Below are positions 5,276 through 41,580 of a stretch of DNA of 64,000 nt, in pieces. Location: positions 1 to 64,000 of IMG/VR virus record IMGVR_UViG_3300034279_000305; one strand, given 5' to 3'. The DNA comes from a virus. The stretch's first letter is position 1, and each line of letters opens with the position of its first letter. The notes below the pieces were generated by a model. It was not told the origin of the DNA and made no database searches. It saw only the letters and a list, made by a program, of their open reading frames with translations. Made by a program: the position numbers and the translations under genes.

Positions 5276-6086
5276 TTGTTGTTTCCTTTTGTTTGAATCT
5301 CCATAGATTCTTAGTTTCACCATCCTTGATCAACTCAACAACGGCCGTTTCTATGGCTGAACGGATCGCATAACTACCTGCTTCATTACTTGTTTGTTGT
5401 CCATCAAATTCAAACGCTTTAGTCGCCATATCGAAGAATGTGAAAGCAGTTACCCCCTCGGAAGTAGAGAGAACAGTTTTCTCTACAGTAACCGAATTGA
5501 GGACTTCACCAGTTTGGACAGAAACTAGGCGAAGACTAACTGTAACTTGGTCTTGTGTGTATTGCTGGTATGGACCGACGCCAAGGAATCTAGCACCAGT
5601 ACCACCAGTTTTAATATTCGAGTTATAATCAATGATACCACCTTCTATGATGATACCTGCAACCTTTAGCGGTGGAAGAGGTTCAGCACCTTCTCCAGAA
5701 ATCTGTTCGCGCATCTGGCGAACAAGTTGACGTTCTTTAATCAGCGAATCGATACCAACACGCTCAACAGGAATAAACCACTTACCATTACCTGTGTCTT
5801 GTAGAGTCTTAATCAGATATGCGTCTGCACCCTGAGTTACCGCAGTCGAGAAACTTGCAAGAGTTGAAGATGGTTTACGTTGACCAGTTCTATCGGTGAA
5901 CGAATATAATGCGATAGGAATTGGTTGTCCGTCTAACTCAGGAAGATCCTTGAACAACTTTGGATTAGCAAAACGTTTGACTTCTGCGTCATCTCTGAAC
6001 AGATATGATTGGTTGGCAGTAGGATGAAGTGCGCCAACACAACCAGAAAGGACGAGCAAAAGCGGAAGGAGAATTAACTTTTTCAT
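5262..6086 (-). CDS. csgG: Curli secretion channel lipoprotein CsgG
   Basis: Lipobox LSGC; FTDRTGQRKP, FSTAVTQGA, WFIPVER, LIKERQLVRQMR, EGGIIDYNSNIKTGGTGARFLGVG, DQVTVSLRLVSVQTGEVL. Confidence 0.93.
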   Translation of the reverse strand: MKKLILLPLLLVLSGCVGALHPTANQSYLFRDDAEVKRFANPKLFKDLPELDGQPIPIALYSFTDRTGQRKPSSTLASFSTAVTQGADAYLIKTLQDTGNGKWFIPVERVGIDSLIKERQLVRQMREQISGEGAEPLPPLKVAGIIIEGGIIDYNSNIKTGGTGARFLGVGPYQQYTQDQVTVSLRLVSVQTGEVLNSVTVEKTVLSTSEGVTAFTFFDMATKAFEFDGQQTSNEAGSYAIRSAIETAVVELIKDGETKNLWRFKQKETTNETK

Positions 6087-6095
6087 AACGTCTCC

Positions 6096-6545
6096 TTAGA
6101 ATGCGAATGTAGCAATAGGAACGACAACAACCGTAGTGTTACCATTCTTATCAACAACTGTCAGTCTAACTTCGGTTCCAGTCTTGACGTAACTTACGGA
6201 GTTACCGTCGAGGTTGAATGTCCCTGCACTGGCATTTCCACCTTCTGCGAACAGATTGTTCGAAAGTTGCGTAGCAAGTTGGGCATATACCTGAGAGGTA
6301 AACAGCGCCATGAATTTAGCGAGTGGCGTATTAGATGCCTCTGCTCTTGCTAGTGCTGCCTTTGCTGCCTCAGCATCTTTAATTGCCTGTTCACGCGAAC
6401 GCTCTTGCGAGTCGATTGATTGCACGTGTGAAGACCACCCATAACCAGTAAAGGAAGGTGATTTAAATTGTTGGACAATAGGATCTGCGTATACTGGACT
6501 ACTTAGACTTAGTAGTGCCAGGAGCATCGTCGCTCGTTTTAGCAT
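6096..6545 (-). CDS. csgF: Curli assembly component CsgF
   Basis: Signal peptide followed by QQFKSPSFTG, VYAQLATQLSNNLF and a C-terminal beta region; adjacent to csgG. Confidence 0.85.
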   Translation of the reverse strand: MLKRATMLLALLSLSSPVYADPIVQQFKSPSFTGYGWSSHVQSIDSQERSREQAIKDAEAAKAALARAEASNTPLAKFMALFTSQVYAQLATQLSNNLFAEGGNASAGTFNLDGNSVSYVKTGTEVRLTVVDKNGNTTVVVVPIATFAF

Positions 6546-12848: not shown

Positions 12849-13524
12849 ATTGCAAGTCCTTATTATTAGTATTTACTGCTGTTTCAGTAATTTCACCATC
12901 AGAAACAGTATAAACTATATTCATGTCACAGTCAATAGTTTTTTCTACACCTGCACGATTAAAAATATCATGAGTAGAAGCAACAATTACGCCATTTTCA
13001 GTTCTATACTGTGTAAGTGGGCGTTTACCATTGCGGTAGAAGCGAAAAATCTTGTCAGAATGAACTTCACACGCTGAAATTGACGCATCAGGCCAACGTT
13101 CAAGTGGATTTTCACCATTTTCAACGGTTTTTAGCAAAAGTTCGCTGTCATTTCGGGTTTCAGTCGCGTAAGAACTAATTTTTGACCAATTTTCGGGTAA
13201 TTCTTGTGTAATTACACCGTTATGCACGATTGCAACCTTGTCAGTGAACAATGGTTGGTTAAATTCTAGGTCTGAAGTGCTATAACGACAGTGTGCAACC
13301 ATATAAAGGTTGCCATCTTCATTCAACATGCTATACATGTCAATGCCAGCAAGGAATTCATCCGCTGGAAGTGGTGCTTTGATGGTAAAGATTGTGTTTT
13401 TGCGAACAAACGACACACCTGTTGCGTGTAACCCCCGAATACGAGACTCGGAGATAACACGCTTCAGAAGCATCATGTCTTCAGCGTTGGGATTTTGAAG
13501 AAATGCGCCGACAACACCGCACAT
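12829..13524 (-). CDS. Class II (Ntn) glutamine amidotransferase
   Basis: N-terminal MCGVVG, RGLHATG, HCRYSTS, HNGVI, NDSE, RNGKRPL. Confidence 0.9.
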   Translation of the reverse strand: MCGVVGAFLQNPNAEDMMLLKRVISESRIRGLHATGVSFVRKNTIFTIKAPLPADEFLAGIDMYSMLNEDGNLYMVAHCRYSTSDLEFNQPLFTDKVAIVHNGVITQELPENWSKISSYATETRNDSELLLKTVENGENPLERWPDASISACEVHSDKIFRFYRNGKRPLTQYRTENGVIVASTHDIFNRAGVEKTIDCDMNIVYTVSDGEITETAVNTNNKDLQYGKYEI

Positions 13525-14861
13525 TAGAACAAATCCTCTAGTGAAGACTCCACCTTGAACGCTGCAGGGTGGAACTTTTCTACAATTTCACGACCCATCT
13601 TACCTTCGAGGTATTCATACCACTCAGGTTCGTCCCACATTCCAGGCGAAACGCCATTCCAGAGTGGGCGATAGAACTTGTGGTTGCGATCCATTCGACG
13701 ATCGGTTACAAACTGTTCGCGAGTCTGCTCATATTCCCATGGTCCAAGATCTAGCATTGCTTCGCGGAAATAGCAAACCAACGAAATGCGTTCAGCATCT
13801 GGAGTATCTAGAACAATCTCAGTATTAGCATGCATAATCTCGTGATTGTTAACAAGCAAAAGATCTCCTGGACGAACGTTCACTGCCATACGATATTCTG
13901 GGAATACCAGATAACCACCAGTATAGTTACCCTTACCAACTACCAGAAGATTCGACAATCCGCTATCTAGATCGCCAGCATCTCGGTGACACGCAGTGCG
14001 GAAAGTCTTGTTGACAGTAATGGTGGTAAACACTGTCTCGGGAACGAGGAAGCGAGGGTCCAACTTGTCTGCCGCTGCTCGTTGATTACCCCAACGCCAC
14101 GGTAGGAGTTCCTTAAAACCTCTGTCTAGAGACTGGAGGAACGGGAACGAAAGAGCAAACTTCTCTGGTTCGTCACGAGTATACGAAGTAGCACGACCGA
14201 AGGGAATACGAGGATAACGGTCGAACCAACCAGCAACGCCAGAGAATACTGACTTCGCATAGTTAGTCTGCGAAACCCACTTAGTGGCAATCATCTTCGC
14301 TTCTTCTGCGCACTGCTCCTTGGTCTTATTATGAAGACCGTCGACCCACTTATCGAACCAACCGAAGTATTCGGGATATGTCTTACAGACCTGACTGCGC
14401 AACCAGACCTGTCCTCGAGTCTCGTCCTCGGTAGAACGACCTGCGCCTTCATACTTCTTACGGATAGACTCAATGGAAAGGTCGTCAATCAAACGTCCAT
14501 CGGTATTCATCAGGAAGTCTAGAACCTCGAGTTCGTAACTGGTAACCCAATCACGCCCACCACGACCCTCTACGCCAAGAAGTTCTCCGCGAGGTCCAGC
14601 AGCGAGTCCACGATTCTGGGATTCTTTTGCTGCCTCGCGGAGACCGATGTATGCGGAATCTCGTTCTTCCTGCGTAAACCAGTTCTTACGAAACTTGAAC
14701 GCAATACGCTGTTCGTCGCCAAGACTTGGAGAACCGAATACCGATTCCATGTAGCAGTCTGTGTCTTCATTAATAACAATGTCATAATGACTGTCATCAA
14801 CATATTGACCGAGCAAATGCTCACAGTCAAGTTTAGACTCAGCAACAATAATTTTTACCAT
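13524..14861 (-). CDS. TET/JBP-family 2OG-Fe(II) dioxygenase
   Basis: FTTITVNKTFRTACHRDAGD (HxD), YTGGYLVFPEY, GDLLLVNNHEIMHANT (distal His), RISLVCYFRE (2OG-binding Arg). Confidence 0.88.
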   Translation of the reverse strand: MVKIIVAESKLDCEHLLGQYVDDSHYDIVINEDTDCYMESVFGSPSLGDEQRIAFKFRKNWFTQEERDSAYIGLREAAKESQNRGLAAGPRGELLGVEGRGGRDWVTSYELEVLDFLMNTDGRLIDDLSIESIRKKYEGAGRSTEDETRGQVWLRSQVCKTYPEYFGWFDKWVDGLHNKTKEQCAEEAKMIATKWVSQTNYAKSVFSGVAGWFDRYPRIPFGRATSYTRDEPEKFALSFPFLQSLDRGFKELLPWRWGNQRAAADKLDPRFLVPETVFTTITVNKTFRTACHRDAGDLDSGLSNLLVVGKGNYTGGYLVFPEYRMAVNVRPGDLLLVNNHEIMHANTEIVLDTPDAERISLVCYFREAMLDLGPWEYEQTREQFVTDRRMDRNHKFYRPLWNGVSPGMWDEPEWYEYLEGKMGREIVEKFHPAAFKVESSLEDLF

Positions 14862-38296: not shown

Positions 38297-38372
38297 TGGC
38301 GGCGGGTGGTAGGAATTGAACCTACTTCTCAAGGTTTTGGAGACCCGTGGATTACCGTTTTCCCTCACCCCC
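38297..38372 (-). tRNA. tRNA-Trp(CCA), with atypical D arm and acceptor stem
   Basis: Loop CT-CCA-AA; T arm GTAGG-TTCAATT-CCTAC; bulged or mismatched acceptor; CCA end. Confidence 0.75.
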
Positions 38373-38464: not shown

Positions 38465-38525
38465 AAAGTCAAGTCGCACTGTGACGCCTGACCCCGTACT
38501 GCCCAGAAAAACAGTACGTCGTATA

Positions 38526-38607
38526 TGGTACCCAAGATAGGATTCGAACCTACATCTTACTTCCAGTTACCTTTGGCTCCGTTCGTAGCGGAGAGGGATA
38601 CTTGGGC
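38526..38607 (-). tRNA. Rearranged tRNA-like RNA with Arg(ACG) anticodon and no canonical D arm
   Basis: GCCCAAG/CTTGGGT acceptor plus ACCA; CTCCG-CTACGAA-CGGAG arm only 7 nt after the acceptor strand; canonical T arm. Confidence 0.7.
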
Positions 38608-38612
38608 AAAAA

Positions 38613-39246: not shown

Positions 39247-39257
39247 GAATCTATAAA

Positions 39258-39410
39258 GCGAAGTGGGAGGATTCAGTTGTACCTCCATGACCCAGTCAAT
39301 TACTATCTGTAATCTCGGTCAACGACTCGTTACTGGTTAAGAGGAGTACCACTCCCCGAGTCTACATTATCCCCACTGACGAGGGGATTATTCAGTCACA
39401 CTTCTTACGC
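39258..39410 (-). ncRNA. Multi-stem ncRNA, possibly manA-motif-like
   Basis: GAAGTG/CACTTC closing stem, four internal helices and potential pseudoknots; the family assignment is from recollection and unverified. Confidence 0.55.
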
Positions 39411-39430
39411 CGACCGTCGCCAGCGATATT

Positions 39431-39673: not shown

Positions 39674-39782
39674 AAAACTTATTTAAAGAACACACTATAT
39701 GCCTATTGACACGCATCTTAAGCGGGACTCACAATAATGTGCTCATTAAATAAGTCTCGAAAGACTTATTTTATTATAACAA

Positions 39783-39794
39783 TGTCAAAGAGCA
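39783..39794 (-). promoter_or_regulatory. boxA antitermination element
   Basis: TGCTCTTTGACA, one mismatch from rrn boxA TGCTCTTTAACA, just downstream of the promoters. Confidence 0.65.
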
Positions 39795-39801
39795 GGAACT
39801 T

Positions 39802-39839
39802 TATTTATACATTCTACTACAATTTTTGTAGAAAGTCAA
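39802..39839 (-). promoter_or_regulatory. Tandem early (TTGACT-17 bp-TAGAAT) and late (TATAAATA) promoters of the tRNA operon
   Basis: -35 box at 39839-39834, -10 box at 39816-39811, TATAAATA at 39809-39802. Confidence 0.75.
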
Positions 39840-39868
39840 CACTTATTTTCATTTTTACCAAAATAATT

Positions 39869-40347: not shown

Positions 40348-40354
40348 ATTAACT

Positions 40355-40549
40355 CTACTTCGAATCTGCCTGCGGAGTTACTGCCGCATCTAGAGGTTTT
40401 TCTGCTGCTTCTTCTGTTGCATTTGCTGTAGCAAGTGCTTCATCTGCTGCAGGACCAGCAGCTTCTGCAACTGATGGCGTTTCTGCGCTGGGAGCACATG
40501 CTGCTGTAAGTGCTACAACTGCTGCTGCCATAAAAGTCTTGATATTCAT
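40355..40549 (-). CDS. Small Ala-rich lipoprotein
   Basis: Signal peptide with lipobox LTAAC; AAGGAAG RBS. Confidence 0.7.
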   Translation of the reverse strand: MNIKTFMAAAVVALTAACAPSAETPSVAEAAGPAADEALATANATEEAAEKPLDAAVTPQADSK

Positions 40550-40626
40550 ATTATTACTTCCTTCGTTAATAGAGTTTGAGAGACTAACCGTGATCTCTCG
40601 CGTGCTTATTAAGTAGCAACCCTAAC

Positions 40627-40865: not shown

Positions 40866-41064
40866 AGATGTAGATTCGATGCTCGAAATCCGGATTCACA
40901 TGAGCGCCAACTACTTGACGCACGATGTAATAATAATCGATGAACCGATCACCGTCACGAGTATACACACCATGGGCATTCCGTGCTTCATCTTCCGACG
41001 CATACACGCCAAGGAGCACAGAACCTGCCATATCGAACTCACCTAGTAATGCAAAAACTTCCAT
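40864..41064 (-). CDS. Hypothetical early protein
   Basis: RBS and promoter upstream. Confidence 0.6.
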   Translation of the reverse strand: MEVFALLGEFDMAGSVLLGVYASEDEARNAHGVYTRDGDRFIDYYYIVRQVVGAHVNPDFEHRIYI

Positions 41065-41091
41065 AACAATTTCCTTTCAAACTATACACAC

Positions 41092-41120
41092 AGTATACCC
41101 CAGATTTAAGAAAAAGTCAA
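41092..41120 (-). promoter_or_regulatory. Early promoter
   Basis: TTGACT-17 bp-TATACT. Confidence 0.8.
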
Positions 41121-41152
41121 GCCCCTATTTTGCATTTTATCAAATTATTTTT

Positions 41153-41320: not shown

Positions 41321-41326
41321 TAAACG

Positions 41327-41563
41327 TTAGAGACCAATCGCGGTACGATATGTCTCTAGAATCATATCTTCTTCTTGCCGAATATGCGCTTCCTTTTTAC
41401 GGAGACGAATAATCTGGCGAGTCGCTTTAGCATCGTAACCTTCGCCTTTCAACTCAGAATAGACTTCCTTACGATCTGCCTTCCTAGCATCAAGATCCGC
41501 TTCGATATTTTCGATGCGCTCGATGAAGAGGCGATACTTATCAACTGCAATAATGTCACTCAT
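41327..41563 (-). CDS. gapR: GapR/DUF2312 nucleoid-associated protein
   Basis: LFIERIENIE....KEVYSELKGEGYDAKATRQIIRLRKK...EEDMILETYRTAIG. Confidence 0.85.
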   Translation of the reverse strand: MSDIIAVDKYRLFIERIENIEADLDARKADRKEVYSELKGEGYDAKATRQIIRLRKKEAHIRQEEDMILETYRTAIGL

Positions 41564-41580
41564 AATATTCTCCTACAAAA

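What the first reader, a model, noticed from the sequence alone, without database searches (positions are those of the whole stretch)
38526..38607. tRNA-Arg(ACG) with the D arm apparently relocated 3' of the anticodon arm
Seen: GCCCAAG-TATCCCT-[CTCCG CTACGAA CGGAG]-CCAAAGGTAACTGGAAGTAAGAT-[GTAGG TTCGAAT CCTAT]-CTTGGGT-ACCA. Acceptor, anticodon and T arms are fully paired, but only 7 nt stand where the D arm should be. The 23-nt variable region contains a D-loop-like hairpin, CCA-AAGGTAAC-TGG, and TCC/CCT of the 5' linker could pair with GGA/AGG in it. It is the only Arg isoacceptor in an otherwise complete set, which argues for function over decay. Known: D-armless tRNAs are a mitochondrial feature, and bacterial ArgRS reads A20 in the D loop. 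Inference: a topologically rewired tRNA that rebuilds the elbow from the variable region, likely to be missed by standard tRNA finders.
Basis: partly seen in the sequence, partly recalled or inferred. Interest (0 to 1): 0.85.

Follow-up and report, generated by a model that had tools for sequence, protein, structure and literature searches.

The report
Rewired phage arginine tRNA gene
This 82-base phage gene is very probably a working arginine tRNA in which half of the D-arm has been moved behind the anticodon arm, a layout that breaks the textbook cloverleaf, is shared by phages of many bacteria including E. coli, and seems undescribed.

Summary
The sequence is exactly as described, on the minus strand at 38526-38607. 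It is one member of a large phage family: my parser found 193 distinct sequences in the DNA fetched. Acceptor, anticodon and T stems covary strongly. 185 of 193 carry arginine anticodons (ACG, UCG, CCG, GCG, UCU, CCU).

The 7-nt linker pairs instead with the bases just 5' of a conserved UAA. On 107 sequences, pair 12:37 is C-G 73, G-C 30, A-U 2, U-A 1, unpaired 1. The following AAYUGGA matches D-loop positions 14-20 of the phage's own ordinary tRNA-Arg at 6 of 7 letters. A 15:48-type pair covaries (A:U 183, G:C 7, G:G 3). The position-20 base is A in 185 of 185 arginine members and U in all 10 non-arginine members.

Best reading: a functional tRNA-Arg(ACG) whose segment 10-20 is transposed into the variable region, keeping a near-normal L-shape. 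Expression and charging are not shown. The contig also has an ordinary tRNA-Arg(UCU) outside the window.

This scan found the same family earlier on other DNA. My assignment of which GG pairs with the linker is tested here. Eight literature searches found no description.

The parts
38601..38607 (-). Acceptor stem, 5' strand (tRNA positions 1-7)
   Evidence: Pairs with 38530-38536. All 7 pairs show changes on both sides across 107 sequences, with 99.3% of cells paired.
38599..38600 (-). U8 and A9 (A9 proposed to sit where A21 sits in an ordinary tRNA)
   Evidence: T and A in every aligned member. My parser required TA, but the model-found divergent members also have it. The A21 role is inference.
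38594..38598 (-). Linker positions 10-14 (UCCCU): descending strand of the D-stem-like helix, equivalent to ordinary positions 22-26, running straight into the anticodon stem
   Evidence: Positions 11 and 12 pair with 38 and 37. Pair 11:38 is paired in 107 of 107 sequences. Pair 12:37 is C-G 73, G-C 30, A-U 2, U-A 1, unpaired 1. Permutation test: 375 observed against 280.8 +/- 6.9, with 0 of 5000 reaching it. In this subfamily the register 12-14 with 36-38 (CCU with AGG) is also possible.
38577..38593 (-). Anticodon arm: 5-bp stem and loop CUACGAA; anticodon ACG at 38584-38586
   Evidence: Sequence. All 5 stem pairs covary, with 97.9% of cells paired.
38573..38576 (-). Four-base bulge (CCAA) between the anticodon stem and the ascending D-stem strand
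   Evidence: Variable in sequence and length across the family. Partial covariation with linker positions 13 and 14 in other subfamilies (mutual information 0.47-0.49).
38569..38572 (-). AGGU: ascending strand of the D-stem-like helix, equivalent to ordinary positions 10-13
   Evidence: Covaries with the linker. Pair types seen include CGG/CCG, CG/CG, CGA/UCG, CGC/GCG, CUC/GAG, CAG/CUG and CACA/UGUG.
38562..38568 (-). AACUGGA: D-loop equivalent, positions 14-20 (A14, A15, C16, U17, G18, G19, A20). The A20 equivalent is at 38562.
   Evidence: Matches 6 of 7 letters of D-loop 14-20 (AGCUGGA) of the contig's own ordinary tRNA-Arg(UCU). The last base is A in 185 of 185 arginine members and U in 8 of 8 non-arginine members. 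In loci fetched with that base left free: 16 of 16 and 2 of 2.
38554..38561 (-). Eight-base tail (variable-loop equivalent) ending in the U48 equivalent at 38554
   Evidence: The last base covaries with the A15 equivalent: A:U 183, G:C 7, G:G 3 of 193. On alignment A3: A-U 104, G-C 3.
38537..38553 (-). T arm: 5-bp stem and loop UUCGAAU
   Evidence: Sequence. 100% of cells paired, and 4 of 5 pairs covary.
38526..38536 (-). Acceptor stem 3' strand (38530-38536), discriminator A (38529), encoded CCA (38526-38528)
   Evidence: Sequence. CCA is encoded in 138 of 186 arginine-type sequences parsed at that step, before one false parse was dropped.

Best explanation
The element is a phage gene for a functional elongator tRNA-Arg. 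Its anticodon ACG is presumably deaminated to ICG by the host, so that it reads CGU, CGC and CGA.

The core is re-threaded rather than lost. Relative to an ordinary tRNA, the segment equivalent to positions 10-20 (5' strand of the D stem plus the D loop up to A20) has been moved from in front of the anticodon arm to behind it, into the variable region.

The 7-nt linker is U8 plus the equivalents of positions 21-26. It runs down as one strand of a short D-stem-like helix and continues without a break into the 5' strand of the anticodon stem. The 3' strand of the anticodon stem continues, after a small bulge, up the other strand of that helix (AGGU). It then runs into AACUGGA (A14, A15, Y16, U17, G18, G19, A20), and an 8-nt tail ending in U48 leads into the T stem.

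The three new chain joints (8 to 21, 44 to 10, 20 to 47/48) link residues that lie next to each other in the ordinary L-shape. The molecule could therefore keep U8:A14, the 15:48 pair, the G18/G19 contact with the T loop, and A20 exposed for arginyl-tRNA synthetase.

Shown here: the sequence, family-wide conservation, stem covariation, the linker helix, 15:48 covariation, and the link between the position-20 base and anticodon identity. Inferred: the three-dimensional fold, processing, charging, inosine formation and use on the ribosome.
For: (1) Family and stems. 193 distinct members were parsed from the loci fetched. All three main stems covary: on 107 sequences, 16 of 17 stem pairs change on both sides and 97.9-100% of cells are paired.

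(2) Anticodons. 185 of 193 members carry arginine anticodons (ACG 81, UCU 69, CCU 16, UCG 14, CCG 4, GCG 1). A scan that placed no constraint on the anticodon gave 55 of 55 arginine.

(3) Linker helix. On the ungapped MAFFT alignment A3, pair 11:38 is paired in 107 of 107 sequences. Pair 12:37 is C-G 73, G-C 30, A-U 2, U-A 1, unpaired 1. Permutation of partners gives 375 observed against 280.8 +/- 6.9, with 0 of 5000 reaching it. Among the 17 divergent members alone, p = 0.0004.

(4) The rival pairing with UGGA fails. Pair 12:44 is C-G 73, U-G 1, unpaired 33, with no change on both sides. Permutation gives 360 observed against 361.8 +/- 4.4, with 3475 of 5000 reaching it.

(5) AACUGGA matches D-loop 14-20 (AGCUGGA) of the same phage's ordinary tRNA-Arg(UCU) at 6 of 7 letters. 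The T arm of that tRNA is nearly identical too.

(6) The 15:48-type pair covaries: A:U 183, G:C 7, G:G 3. The G:C cases occur in members with ACG, UCU, CCU, UCG and UAU anticodons.

(7) The position-20 base is A in 185 of 185 arginine members and U in 8 of 8 members with Ile, Met-type or Lys anticodons. Two further non-arginine members also have U. In loci fetched with that base left free, the counts are 16 of 16 and 2 of 2. A20 is the main determinant for bacterial ArgRS (review PMC9976931, passages read).

(8) Demand. 708 of 995 arginine codons (71%) in 69 long ORFs of the contig are CGU, CGC or CGA. No other tRNA in the contig reads them.

(9) The element sits in register inside a tRNA array. 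It starts 5 nt after the CCA of tRNA-Gly, and it encodes its own CCA.

(10) In 146 of 161 held loci, no ordinary tRNA-Arg with the same anticodon lies nearby.

(11) Exact copies of the 82-84 nt stretch occur in assembled contigs of 2 of the 4 freshwater metatranscriptome runs laid on it. This is weak evidence.
Against: No direct evidence of transcription, end processing, charging or decoding. The metatranscriptome evidence consists of assembled contigs in which carried-over DNA cannot be excluded.

In the register that holds family-wide, the linker helix of the window's own subfamily has only two Watson-Crick pairs (C11-G38, C12-G37). Both are invariant within the ACG subfamily. The covariation comes mostly from UCU, CCU and UCG members.

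RNAalifold on 107 sequences predicts only the three main stems. The fold is no more stable than shuffled sequence (z = -0.69).

The position-20 association is partly ascertained: scans 2, 4 and 5 required UGGA, and my parser required TA at positions 8-9 and TAA or TAG after the helix. The unbiased subset is small (18 sequences). The non-arginine members may be one or a few lineages.

15 of 161 loci also hold an ordinary tRNA-Arg with the same anticodon, for example phage Zooman. So the gene is not always the sole decoder. Some of those 15 are ARAGORN calling the member itself.

Three of ten G15 members have G, not C, at the 48-equivalent.

The three-dimensional argument rests on recalled textbook tRNA geometry, not on a computed model.
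Confidence: 0.7

Rival explanations
1. Same gene and same function, but wired the other way. The linker UCC pairs with the later GGA (of UGGA) as the D stem, and the earlier AAGGUAAC is the D loop carrying G18 and G19.
For: In the ACG subfamily both pairings are possible, because CC and both GG dinucleotides are invariant. U10-A46 can also form in 53 of 107 sequences. I held this idea myself.
Against: When linker position 12 changes, the first GG changes with it in 33 of 34 sequences. The second GG stays G, giving 33 unpaired cells and no change on both sides. Permutation shows no signal (3475 of 5000 shuffles reach the observed value). This wiring also leaves unexplained the 15:48-type covariation and the A/U switch after the second GG.
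Confidence: 0.06
2. A tRNA-like RNA that is made but not used for decoding. It could be a decoy or sponge for a tRNA-targeting host nuclease, or for ArgRS or another tRNA-binding protein, or a regulatory RNA.
For: The non-cloverleaf layout might be poorly accepted by the ribosome. Some phages carry it beside an ordinary tRNA-Arg with the same anticodon (Zooman; at most 15 of 161 loci). Phage tRNAs have been linked to evasion of tRNA-targeting defences (PMC10264068, search listing and start of abstract only).
Against: Anticodons cover all six arginine codons and are kept within arginine in 185 of 193 members. In most loci it is the only tRNA with that anticodon. In this contig 71% of arginine codons would depend on it or on the host. 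Acceptor stem, T arm, encoded CCA, the anticodon loop and the charging determinant are all conserved as in a working tRNA.
Confidence: 0.15
3. A decayed tRNA pseudogene, left after deletion of the D arm and an insertion in the variable loop.
For: It scores marginally with Rfam (30.7 bits against a cut-off of 29) and is missed by ARAGORN. Its folding energy is no better than shuffled sequence.
Against: There are 193 distinct sequences with compensatory changes in every stem. The layout is conserved in phages of Escherichia, Pseudomonas, Xanthomonas, Rhizobium, Maribacter and Microbacterium. The window-type sequence is held at 92% or more of sampled words in 14 lake or freshwater DNA runs from 14 studies.
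Confidence: 0.02
4. One reading: a D-arm-like hairpin (CCA stem, 8-nt loop, UGG) standing in the variable region as a relocated D arm.
For: It is the minimum-free-energy fold of the single window sequence, at -20.6 kcal/mol.
Against: Only 37.4% of cells pair across 93 sequences. The 5' triplet varies (CCA, UGA, CGA, AGA, AGU, ACU and others) against a constant UGG.
Confidence: 0.02

Closest known systems
Ordinary class I bacterial and phage tRNA-Arg (Rfam RF00005), for example this contig's own tRNA-Arg(UCU) at contig 70131-70207(-)
   Same: 7-bp acceptor stem, discriminator and CCA. 5-bp anticodon stem with a 7-nt loop. T arm nearly identical to the neighbour's. U8. D-loop letters 14-20 the same at 6 of 7 positions, including G18, G19 and A20. 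C35 with G36 or U36.
   Different: There is no D hairpin between the acceptor and anticodon arms. The equivalent of positions 10-20 lies 3' of the anticodon arm, so the anticodon arm is enclosed by the D-stem-like helix. The region between the anticodon and T arms is 23 nt instead of 5. Purines sit on the ascending D-stem strand.
D-armless mitochondrial tRNAs (metazoan mt tRNA-Ser(AGY); nematode mt tRNAs). Recalled, and named in review PMC4394434 (search listing only).
   Same: No D hairpin in the usual place. A short connector between the acceptor and anticodon stems.
   Different: As I recall them, those tRNAs have lost the D stem, G18/G19 and the elbow contact, and they work with adapted mitochondrial partners. 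Here a D-stem-like helix, a D-loop equivalent and a canonical T loop are all kept, and the setting is bacterial translation.
allo-tRNAs with 8/4 or 9/3 acceptor/T branches (PMC5389517, search listing and start of abstract only)
   Same: Natural non-standard tRNA architectures, found by mining genomes and metagenomes and partly phage-associated.
   Different: Those keep the cloverleaf order of arms and change stem lengths. Here stem lengths are standard (7/5) but the order of the segments is changed.
Circularly permuted tRNA genes of some algae and archaea (recalled)
   Same: The gene order of tRNA segments differs from the standard order.
   Different: As recalled, in those genes the 3' half precedes the 5' half and processing restores an ordinary mature tRNA. 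Here the 5' and 3' acceptor strands are in normal order, and no known bacterial processing would move an internal 11-nt segment. The mature RNA itself would be non-cloverleaf (inference).
Class II tRNAs (Leu, Ser, bacterial Tyr) with a long variable arm
   Same: A long stretch between the anticodon and T arms.
   Different: Class II tRNAs keep a normal D arm, and their variable region forms its own hairpin. Here the hairpin is not supported (37.4% of cells paired), and the region pairs with the 5' linker instead.

Membership tests
tRNA, canonical cloverleaf (Rfam RF00005) | 7-bp acceptor stem with discriminator and 3' CCA | tested here: met
   99.3% of cells paired and all 7 pairs covary. CCA is encoded.
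tRNA, canonical cloverleaf (Rfam RF00005) | 5-bp anticodon stem and 7-nt loop with U33 and a purine at 37 | tested here: met
   (loop CUACGAA); 97.9% of cells paired and 5 of 5 pairs covary.
tRNA, canonical cloverleaf (Rfam RF00005) | 5-bp T stem and a T loop of the UUCRANY type | tested here: met
   100% of cells paired. The loop is UUCGAAU.
tRNA, canonical cloverleaf (Rfam RF00005) | D hairpin (stem 10-13 with 22-25 closing the D loop) between the acceptor and anticodon arms | tested here: not met
   Only 7 nt stand there. The Rfam alignment deletes 15 model positions at this point.
tRNA, canonical cloverleaf (Rfam RF00005) | Score at or above the family's gathering cut-off | tested here: inconclusive
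   30.7 bits against 29, but not listed in the 5.5-kb search at E<=10. ARAGORN misses it.
tRNA, canonical cloverleaf (Rfam RF00005) | Tertiary-contact residues U8, A14, R15:Y48 and G18-G19 facing the T loop | tested here: met
   Sequence equivalents are present, and the 15:48-type pair covaries (A:U 183, G:C 7, G:G 3). Whether the contacts themselves form cannot be tested with these tools.
Substrates of bacterial arginyl-tRNA synthetase | A20 in the D loop (main determinant; PMC9976931, passages read) | tested here: met
   The A at window 38562 follows the G18-G19 equivalent. A in 185 of 185 arginine members and U in 10 of 10 non-arginine members.
Substrates of bacterial arginyl-tRNA synthetase | C35 with G36 or U36; discriminator A, G or U | tested here: met
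   Anticodon ACG and discriminator A. Discriminators in the family: U 72, G 67, A 45, C 2.
Substrates of bacterial arginyl-tRNA synthetase | Actual charging with arginine | not testable with these tools
   Needs an aminoacylation assay.
D-armless mitochondrial-type tRNAs | Loss of D-stem pairing and of the G18-G19 elbow contact, with a short replacement loop (recalled definition) | tested here: not met
   A covarying D-stem-like helix and a conserved YUGGA motif are present.
Class II tRNAs | The variable region forms its own stem-loop beside a normal D arm | tested here: not met
   The candidate hairpin has 37.4% of cells paired. There is no normal D arm.
   The window copy scores 91.2 bits with R1, against at most about 41 bits for ordinary tRNAs. 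It parses with all of these elements.

The most novel reading that the evidence does not exclude
The re-threaded core is an adaptation, not an accident. By changing chain connectivity while keeping the L-shape and A20, phages from at least three bacterial phyla would make arginine tRNAs that ArgRS, EF-Tu and the ribosome still accept. Host tRNA-targeting defence enzymes, or the phage's own host-shutoff enzymes, that recognise the ordinary D-arm or cloverleaf connectivity would not accept them. This would be a natural non-cloverleaf tRNA class working on bacterial ribosomes. It has already begun to spread to Ile, Met-type and Lys identities by switching the anticodon together with the position-20 base.
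Probability: 0.2. Interest if true: 0.92.

Novelty: new variant of a known kind. Interest (0 to 1): 0.8.

Why it matters
All known cytoplasmic tRNAs of bacteria and their phages are taught as cloverleaves. A conserved tRNA whose segments are in a different order, yet which keeps the residues needed for the L-shape and for charging, has several consequences.

- It would show that the fold, not the cloverleaf connectivity, is what translation requires.
- It would give a natural scaffold for engineering orthogonal tRNAs.
- Many phage genomes would be mis-annotated as lacking an arginine tRNA. In the four cultured-phage records where I checked annotation around an ACG or UCU copy (Zooman twice, RHph_I1_18 twice) none was annotated. 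phi92, PA11, XacN1 and Panino also lack a tRNA annotation there, and some phi92-like records call it 'tRNA-OTHER'.
- Studies of phage tRNA sets against codon usage would be affected by the missing gene.

Members occur in coliphages of the phi92 group that grow on laboratory E. coli (hosts as written). The question is therefore directly testable at the bench.

Tried and rejected
Rejected: 37.4% of cells paired.
- My own first idea, that UCC of the linker pairs with GGA of UGGA (note). Rejected after the divergent members were found.
- RNAalifold on 107 sequences. It returned only the three main stems, so it neither supports nor contradicts the short helix.
- Single-sequence energies do not discriminate. 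The models lie within 3 kcal/mol of each other.
- Scan for more G15 (UAG) variants of the ACG type. It gave only L109 plus one chance match (L176).
- Scan 3. About 25 of its loci were chance matches with no tRNA-like context.
- blastn of the 901-base neighbourhood against cultured phages. No close relative of the window phage was found; only scattered tRNA matches.
- Sequencing runs. Two of the four metatranscriptome assemblies laid (X16, X18) have no contig over the element. The other two have exact contigs, but their flanks differ from the window's, so they come from related phages and do not show transcript ends. Contig depth was not used.
- I could not run tRNAscan-SE. The statement that standard finders miss the gene rests on ARAGORN (any call in 11 of 194 parsed sequences, one of them a false parse; right anticodon in 4) and on GenBank annotations.
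- The metagenome-contig scan, protein tools, structure prediction and complex prediction were not used. The finding is an RNA gene.
- Supplementary files of papers were closed and not consulted. tRNA lists in supplements of phage genome papers could mention such genes.
- Literature searches that found no description. About 1.7 million PubMed Central articles and most subscription journals are not covered by these searches.
Full report
OBSERVATION. It has a 7-bp acceptor stem beginning with a G.U pair, 7 nt where a D arm should stand, and a 5-bp anticodon stem with the loop CUACGAA. Then come 23 nt, a 5-bp T stem with the loop UUCGAAU, discriminator A and an encoded CCA. It starts 5 nt after the CCA of tRNA-Gly, inside an array of 22 ARAGORN-called tRNAs plus a tRNA-Trp seen only by Rfam. 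ARAGORN does not call it. Rfam's tRNA model reaches 30.7 bits against a cut-off of 29 when little sequence is searched, and it does so by deleting the D arm and inserting 20 nt in the variable region. A 5.5-kb search did not list it at all.

THE GENOME. The window is part of an 86,961-base IMG/VR virus contig estimated at about 53% complete. It encodes a ribonucleotide reductase large subunit, a baseplate-wedge-like protein and a Tgt-like protein. The tRNA-array stretch is held almost fully (92% or more of sampled words) in 14 lake or freshwater DNA runs from 14 studies. The contig has one further tRNA outside the window, an ordinary tRNA-Arg(UCU) at 70131-70207(-). So the element is the only arginine tRNA of the window and the only reader of CGN codons in the contig, but not the only arginine isoacceptor. 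In 69 long ORFs of the contig, 708 of 995 arginine codons (71%) are CGU, CGC or CGA.

A LARGE FAMILY. A pattern built from the anticodon loop, the motif after it and the T loop found 47 IMG/VR contigs with the same layout. A second pattern with no constraint on the anticodon found 55 contigs, and all 55 carry arginine anticodons (ACG, UCG, UCU, CCU). A covariance model (R1) built from 76 distinct members scores the window copy at 91.2 bits. Ordinary tRNAs in about 1.28 Mb of fetched loci score at most about 41 bits. Hits between 44 and 77 bits turned out to be divergent members.

My parser found 198 distinct sequences in the loci fetched up to that point. After I dropped five false parses of ordinary tRNAs, 193 remain. 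Of these, 185 have arginine anticodons (ACG 81, UCU 69, CCU 16, UCG 14, CCG 4, GCG 1) and 8 do not (CAU 3, GAU 2, UAU 2, CUU 1). Two more non-arginine members (GAU, UAU) turned up later. ARAGORN made any call on 11 of the 194 parsed sequences, one of them a false parse, and gave the right anticodon for 4.

The family is essentially viral for the window's type. An ACG-type pattern found only 2 places in one genome each of 185,579 prokaryotic species. Both lie in phage-like arrays of 13 and 17 tRNAs.

Cultured phages carry members:
- Microbacterium phage Zooman and Rhizobium phage RHph_I1_18 carry an ACG copy and a UCU copy each. All four copies are unannotated.
- Escherichia phage phi92 carries a UCU copy at FR775895.2 51874-51955, unannotated. 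The same query matched 57 records in all, 46 of them named Escherichia phages, and some annotate the place as 'tRNA-OTHER'.
- Pseudomonas phage PA11, Xanthomonas phage XacN1 and Maribacter phage Panino each carry a copy confirmed with R1 at 60.5, 80.3 and 44.2 bits.

WHICH STRUCTURE. The three main stems covary strongly. Two candidates remained for a helix that encloses the anticodon arm: the linker CC pairing with the first GG (just 5' of a conserved UAA), or with the second GG (in UGGA). Within the ACG subfamily both are invariant, so they cannot be told apart there. The divergent members decide the question. On an ungapped MAFFT alignment of 107 sequences, pair 11:38 is paired in 107 of 107. 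Pair 12:37 is C-G 73, G-C 30, A-U 2, U-A 1, unpaired 1. Pair 13:36 adds 29 paired cells of five types. With the second GG, pair 12:44 is C-G 73, U-G 1 and unpaired 33, with no change on both sides.

Permutation tests agree. Swapping partners among 141 distinct linker and partner combinations gives a summed helix length of 375 against 280.8 +/- 6.9, with 0 of 5000 shuffles reaching it. The UGGA model gives 360 against 361.8 +/- 4.4, with 3475 of 5000 reaching it. Helix types seen include CGG/CCG, CG/CG, CCU/AGG (the window's type), CGA/UCG, CGC/GCG, CUC/GAG, CAG/CUG and CACA/UGUG. RNAalifold does not predict this short helix, and single-sequence energies do not discriminate between the models.

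MAPPING ONTO AN ORDINARY tRNA. After the helix's 3' strand comes UAA or UAG, then 0-2 nt, then NGGA. In the window the seven letters after the U are AACUGGA. The D loop of the contig's own ordinary tRNA-Arg(UCU) reads AGCUGGA at positions 14-20, so 6 of 7 letters match.

Two further observations fit this numbering. First, the second base after the helix (the position-15 equivalent) and the last base before the T stem (the position-48 equivalent) go together as A:U in 183 members, G:C in 7 and G:G in 3. On A3 the counts are A-U 104 and G-C 3. The G:C cases occur in members with five different anticodons. Second, the base after the second GG (the position-20 equivalent) is A in 185 of 185 arginine members and U in all 10 non-arginine members. 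In loci fetched by a pattern that left this base and the anticodon free, the counts are 16 of 16 and 2 of 2, with 32 other matches that are not family members. A20 is the main determinant for bacterial ArgRS and is unique to arginine among the 20 tRNA families. U20 is listed among the bacterial isoleucine determinants (PMC9976931, passages read).

I therefore read the gene as follows:
- acceptor stem positions 1-7, then U8
- the equivalents of positions 21-26 (the rest of the 7-nt linker)
- the anticodon arm
- a 4-nt bulge
- the equivalents of positions 10-13 (AGGU)
- positions 14-20 (AACUGGA)
- a tail ending in U48, then the T arm

In other words, segment 10-20 has been transposed into the variable region.

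HOW IT LIKELY WORKS. The linker strand runs directly into the 5' strand of the anticodon stem, as positions 22-27 do in an ordinary tRNA. The 3' strand of the anticodon stem runs, after a bulge, into the other strand of the helix. In an ordinary tRNA that strand lies quasi-continuous with it in the coaxial stack. The three new joints (8 to 21, 44 to 10, 20 to 47/48) connect residues that are neighbours in the textbook L-shape. This last step is inference from recalled tRNA geometry, not a computation. If it holds, RNase P, the CCA end, ArgRS (through A20, C35 and G36), the host deaminase acting on the unchanged CUACGAA loop, EF-Tu and the ribosome could all treat the molecule as a normal tRNA-Arg.

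Evidence for expression is weak. Two of the four freshwater metatranscriptome assemblies laid on the stretch hold contigs that cover 38525-38608 and 38525-38607 without a mismatch. But these are contigs, their flanks differ from the window's, and DNA carry-over is not excluded.

RIVALS. The alternative wiring is disfavoured. A non-decoding decoy cannot be excluded without experiments. It is made less likely by the restriction to arginine anticodons, by the coupled position-20 switch, and by the fact that in 146 of 161 held loci no ordinary tRNA-Arg with the same anticodon lies nearby (loci are partial, and some of the 15 exceptions are ARAGORN calling the member itself). A pseudogene is excluded for practical purposes by the covariation.

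COMPARISON AND NOVELTY. The element works like, and scores marginally as, a tRNA, but it fails the defining cloverleaf feature of a D hairpin between the acceptor and anticodon arms. It differs from D-armless mitochondrial tRNAs because the D-stem and D-loop equivalents are kept. It differs from class II tRNAs because it has no variable hairpin and no normal D arm. It differs from allo-tRNAs because stem lengths are standard. It differs from permuted tRNA genes because the mature RNA itself would be rearranged.

Eight full-text searches found no description. A 2025 paper on the phi92-like phage BME3 lists 16 tRNAs found with tRNAscan-SE and ARAGORN, none of them arginine (PMC12210895, passages read). 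I did not check whether BME3 itself holds a member.

Earlier notes of this scan describe the same family on other DNA, with the same general reading of a rewired phage tRNA-Arg. The following were tested here:
- that the linker pairs with the first GG and not with UGGA
- the 14-20 numbering
- the 15:48-type covariation
- the A/U switch at position 20
- members in phi92-group coliphages

VERDICT. The best reading is a functional, re-threaded tRNA-Arg(ACG), with confidence 0.7. It is a new variant of a known kind, of high interest, and directly testable in E. coli.

Noticed in passing
window 38301-38372 (-): A tRNA-Trp(CCA) found by Rfam at 43.8 bits but not called by ARAGORN. By eye it has a G.G mismatch in the acceptor stem and a weak D stem.
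   Followed up: no
window 39256-39425 (-): A manA RNA motif (RF01745, 65 bits against a cut-off of 55.2) sits inside the tRNA array, between tRNA-Ala and tRNA-Met.
   Followed up: no
G000:C1:70131-70207 (-) = L001:6131-6207: An ordinary tRNA-Arg(UCU) stands alone about 31.5 kb from the array, outside the window. Its D loop and T arm closely resemble the corresponding parts of the rewired gene.
   Followed up: yes
window 13524-14861 (-): A 445-aa protein matching phrog_24024 (E 2.7e-151), with a weak match to queuine tRNA-ribosyltransferase. It may be a DNA or tRNA 7-deazaguanine transglycosylase.
   Followed up: no
L079:310-390 and 6052-6131; L225, L245, L275, L281, L286, L289, L319, L322: Ten members of the same rewired layout carry non-arginine anticodons (GAU, UAU, CAU, CUU). 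All have U instead of A after the second GG. Discriminator A was checked in the eight parsed, and only one of those eight encodes CCA. The layout has spread beyond arginine.
   Followed up: partly
L052:1470-1544, L053 same place; L302, L308, L313, L318, L324, L328, L349, L351, L352: T5-like phages (Tequintavirus) and several IMG/VR contigs hold a conserved tRNA-like element. It shares the 3' half of the family (CCG, UAA, C, UGGU, tail, T arm, acceptor-like ends), but I could find no anticodon arm. It is annotated as nothing or as a hypothetical protein.
   Followed up: no
L356:1199-1280 (Escherichia phage phi92, FR775895.2 51874-51955): phi92 and dozens of related coliphage records carry a UCU member between tRNA-Leu and tRNA-Ser. 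It is unannotated in phi92 and called 'tRNA-OTHER' in some newer records.
   Followed up: partly
L310 (about 2260-2350, +): A UCG-type member seems to carry a short internal duplication of the anticodon-loop region, so it did not parse.
   Followed up: no
window 39674-39868, 40348-40626, 40866-41152, 41321-41580: Gaps of 190-290 nt inside the tRNA array have no tRNA call and no Rfam match above noise. Model R1 finds no second rewired tRNA there.
   Followed up: partly
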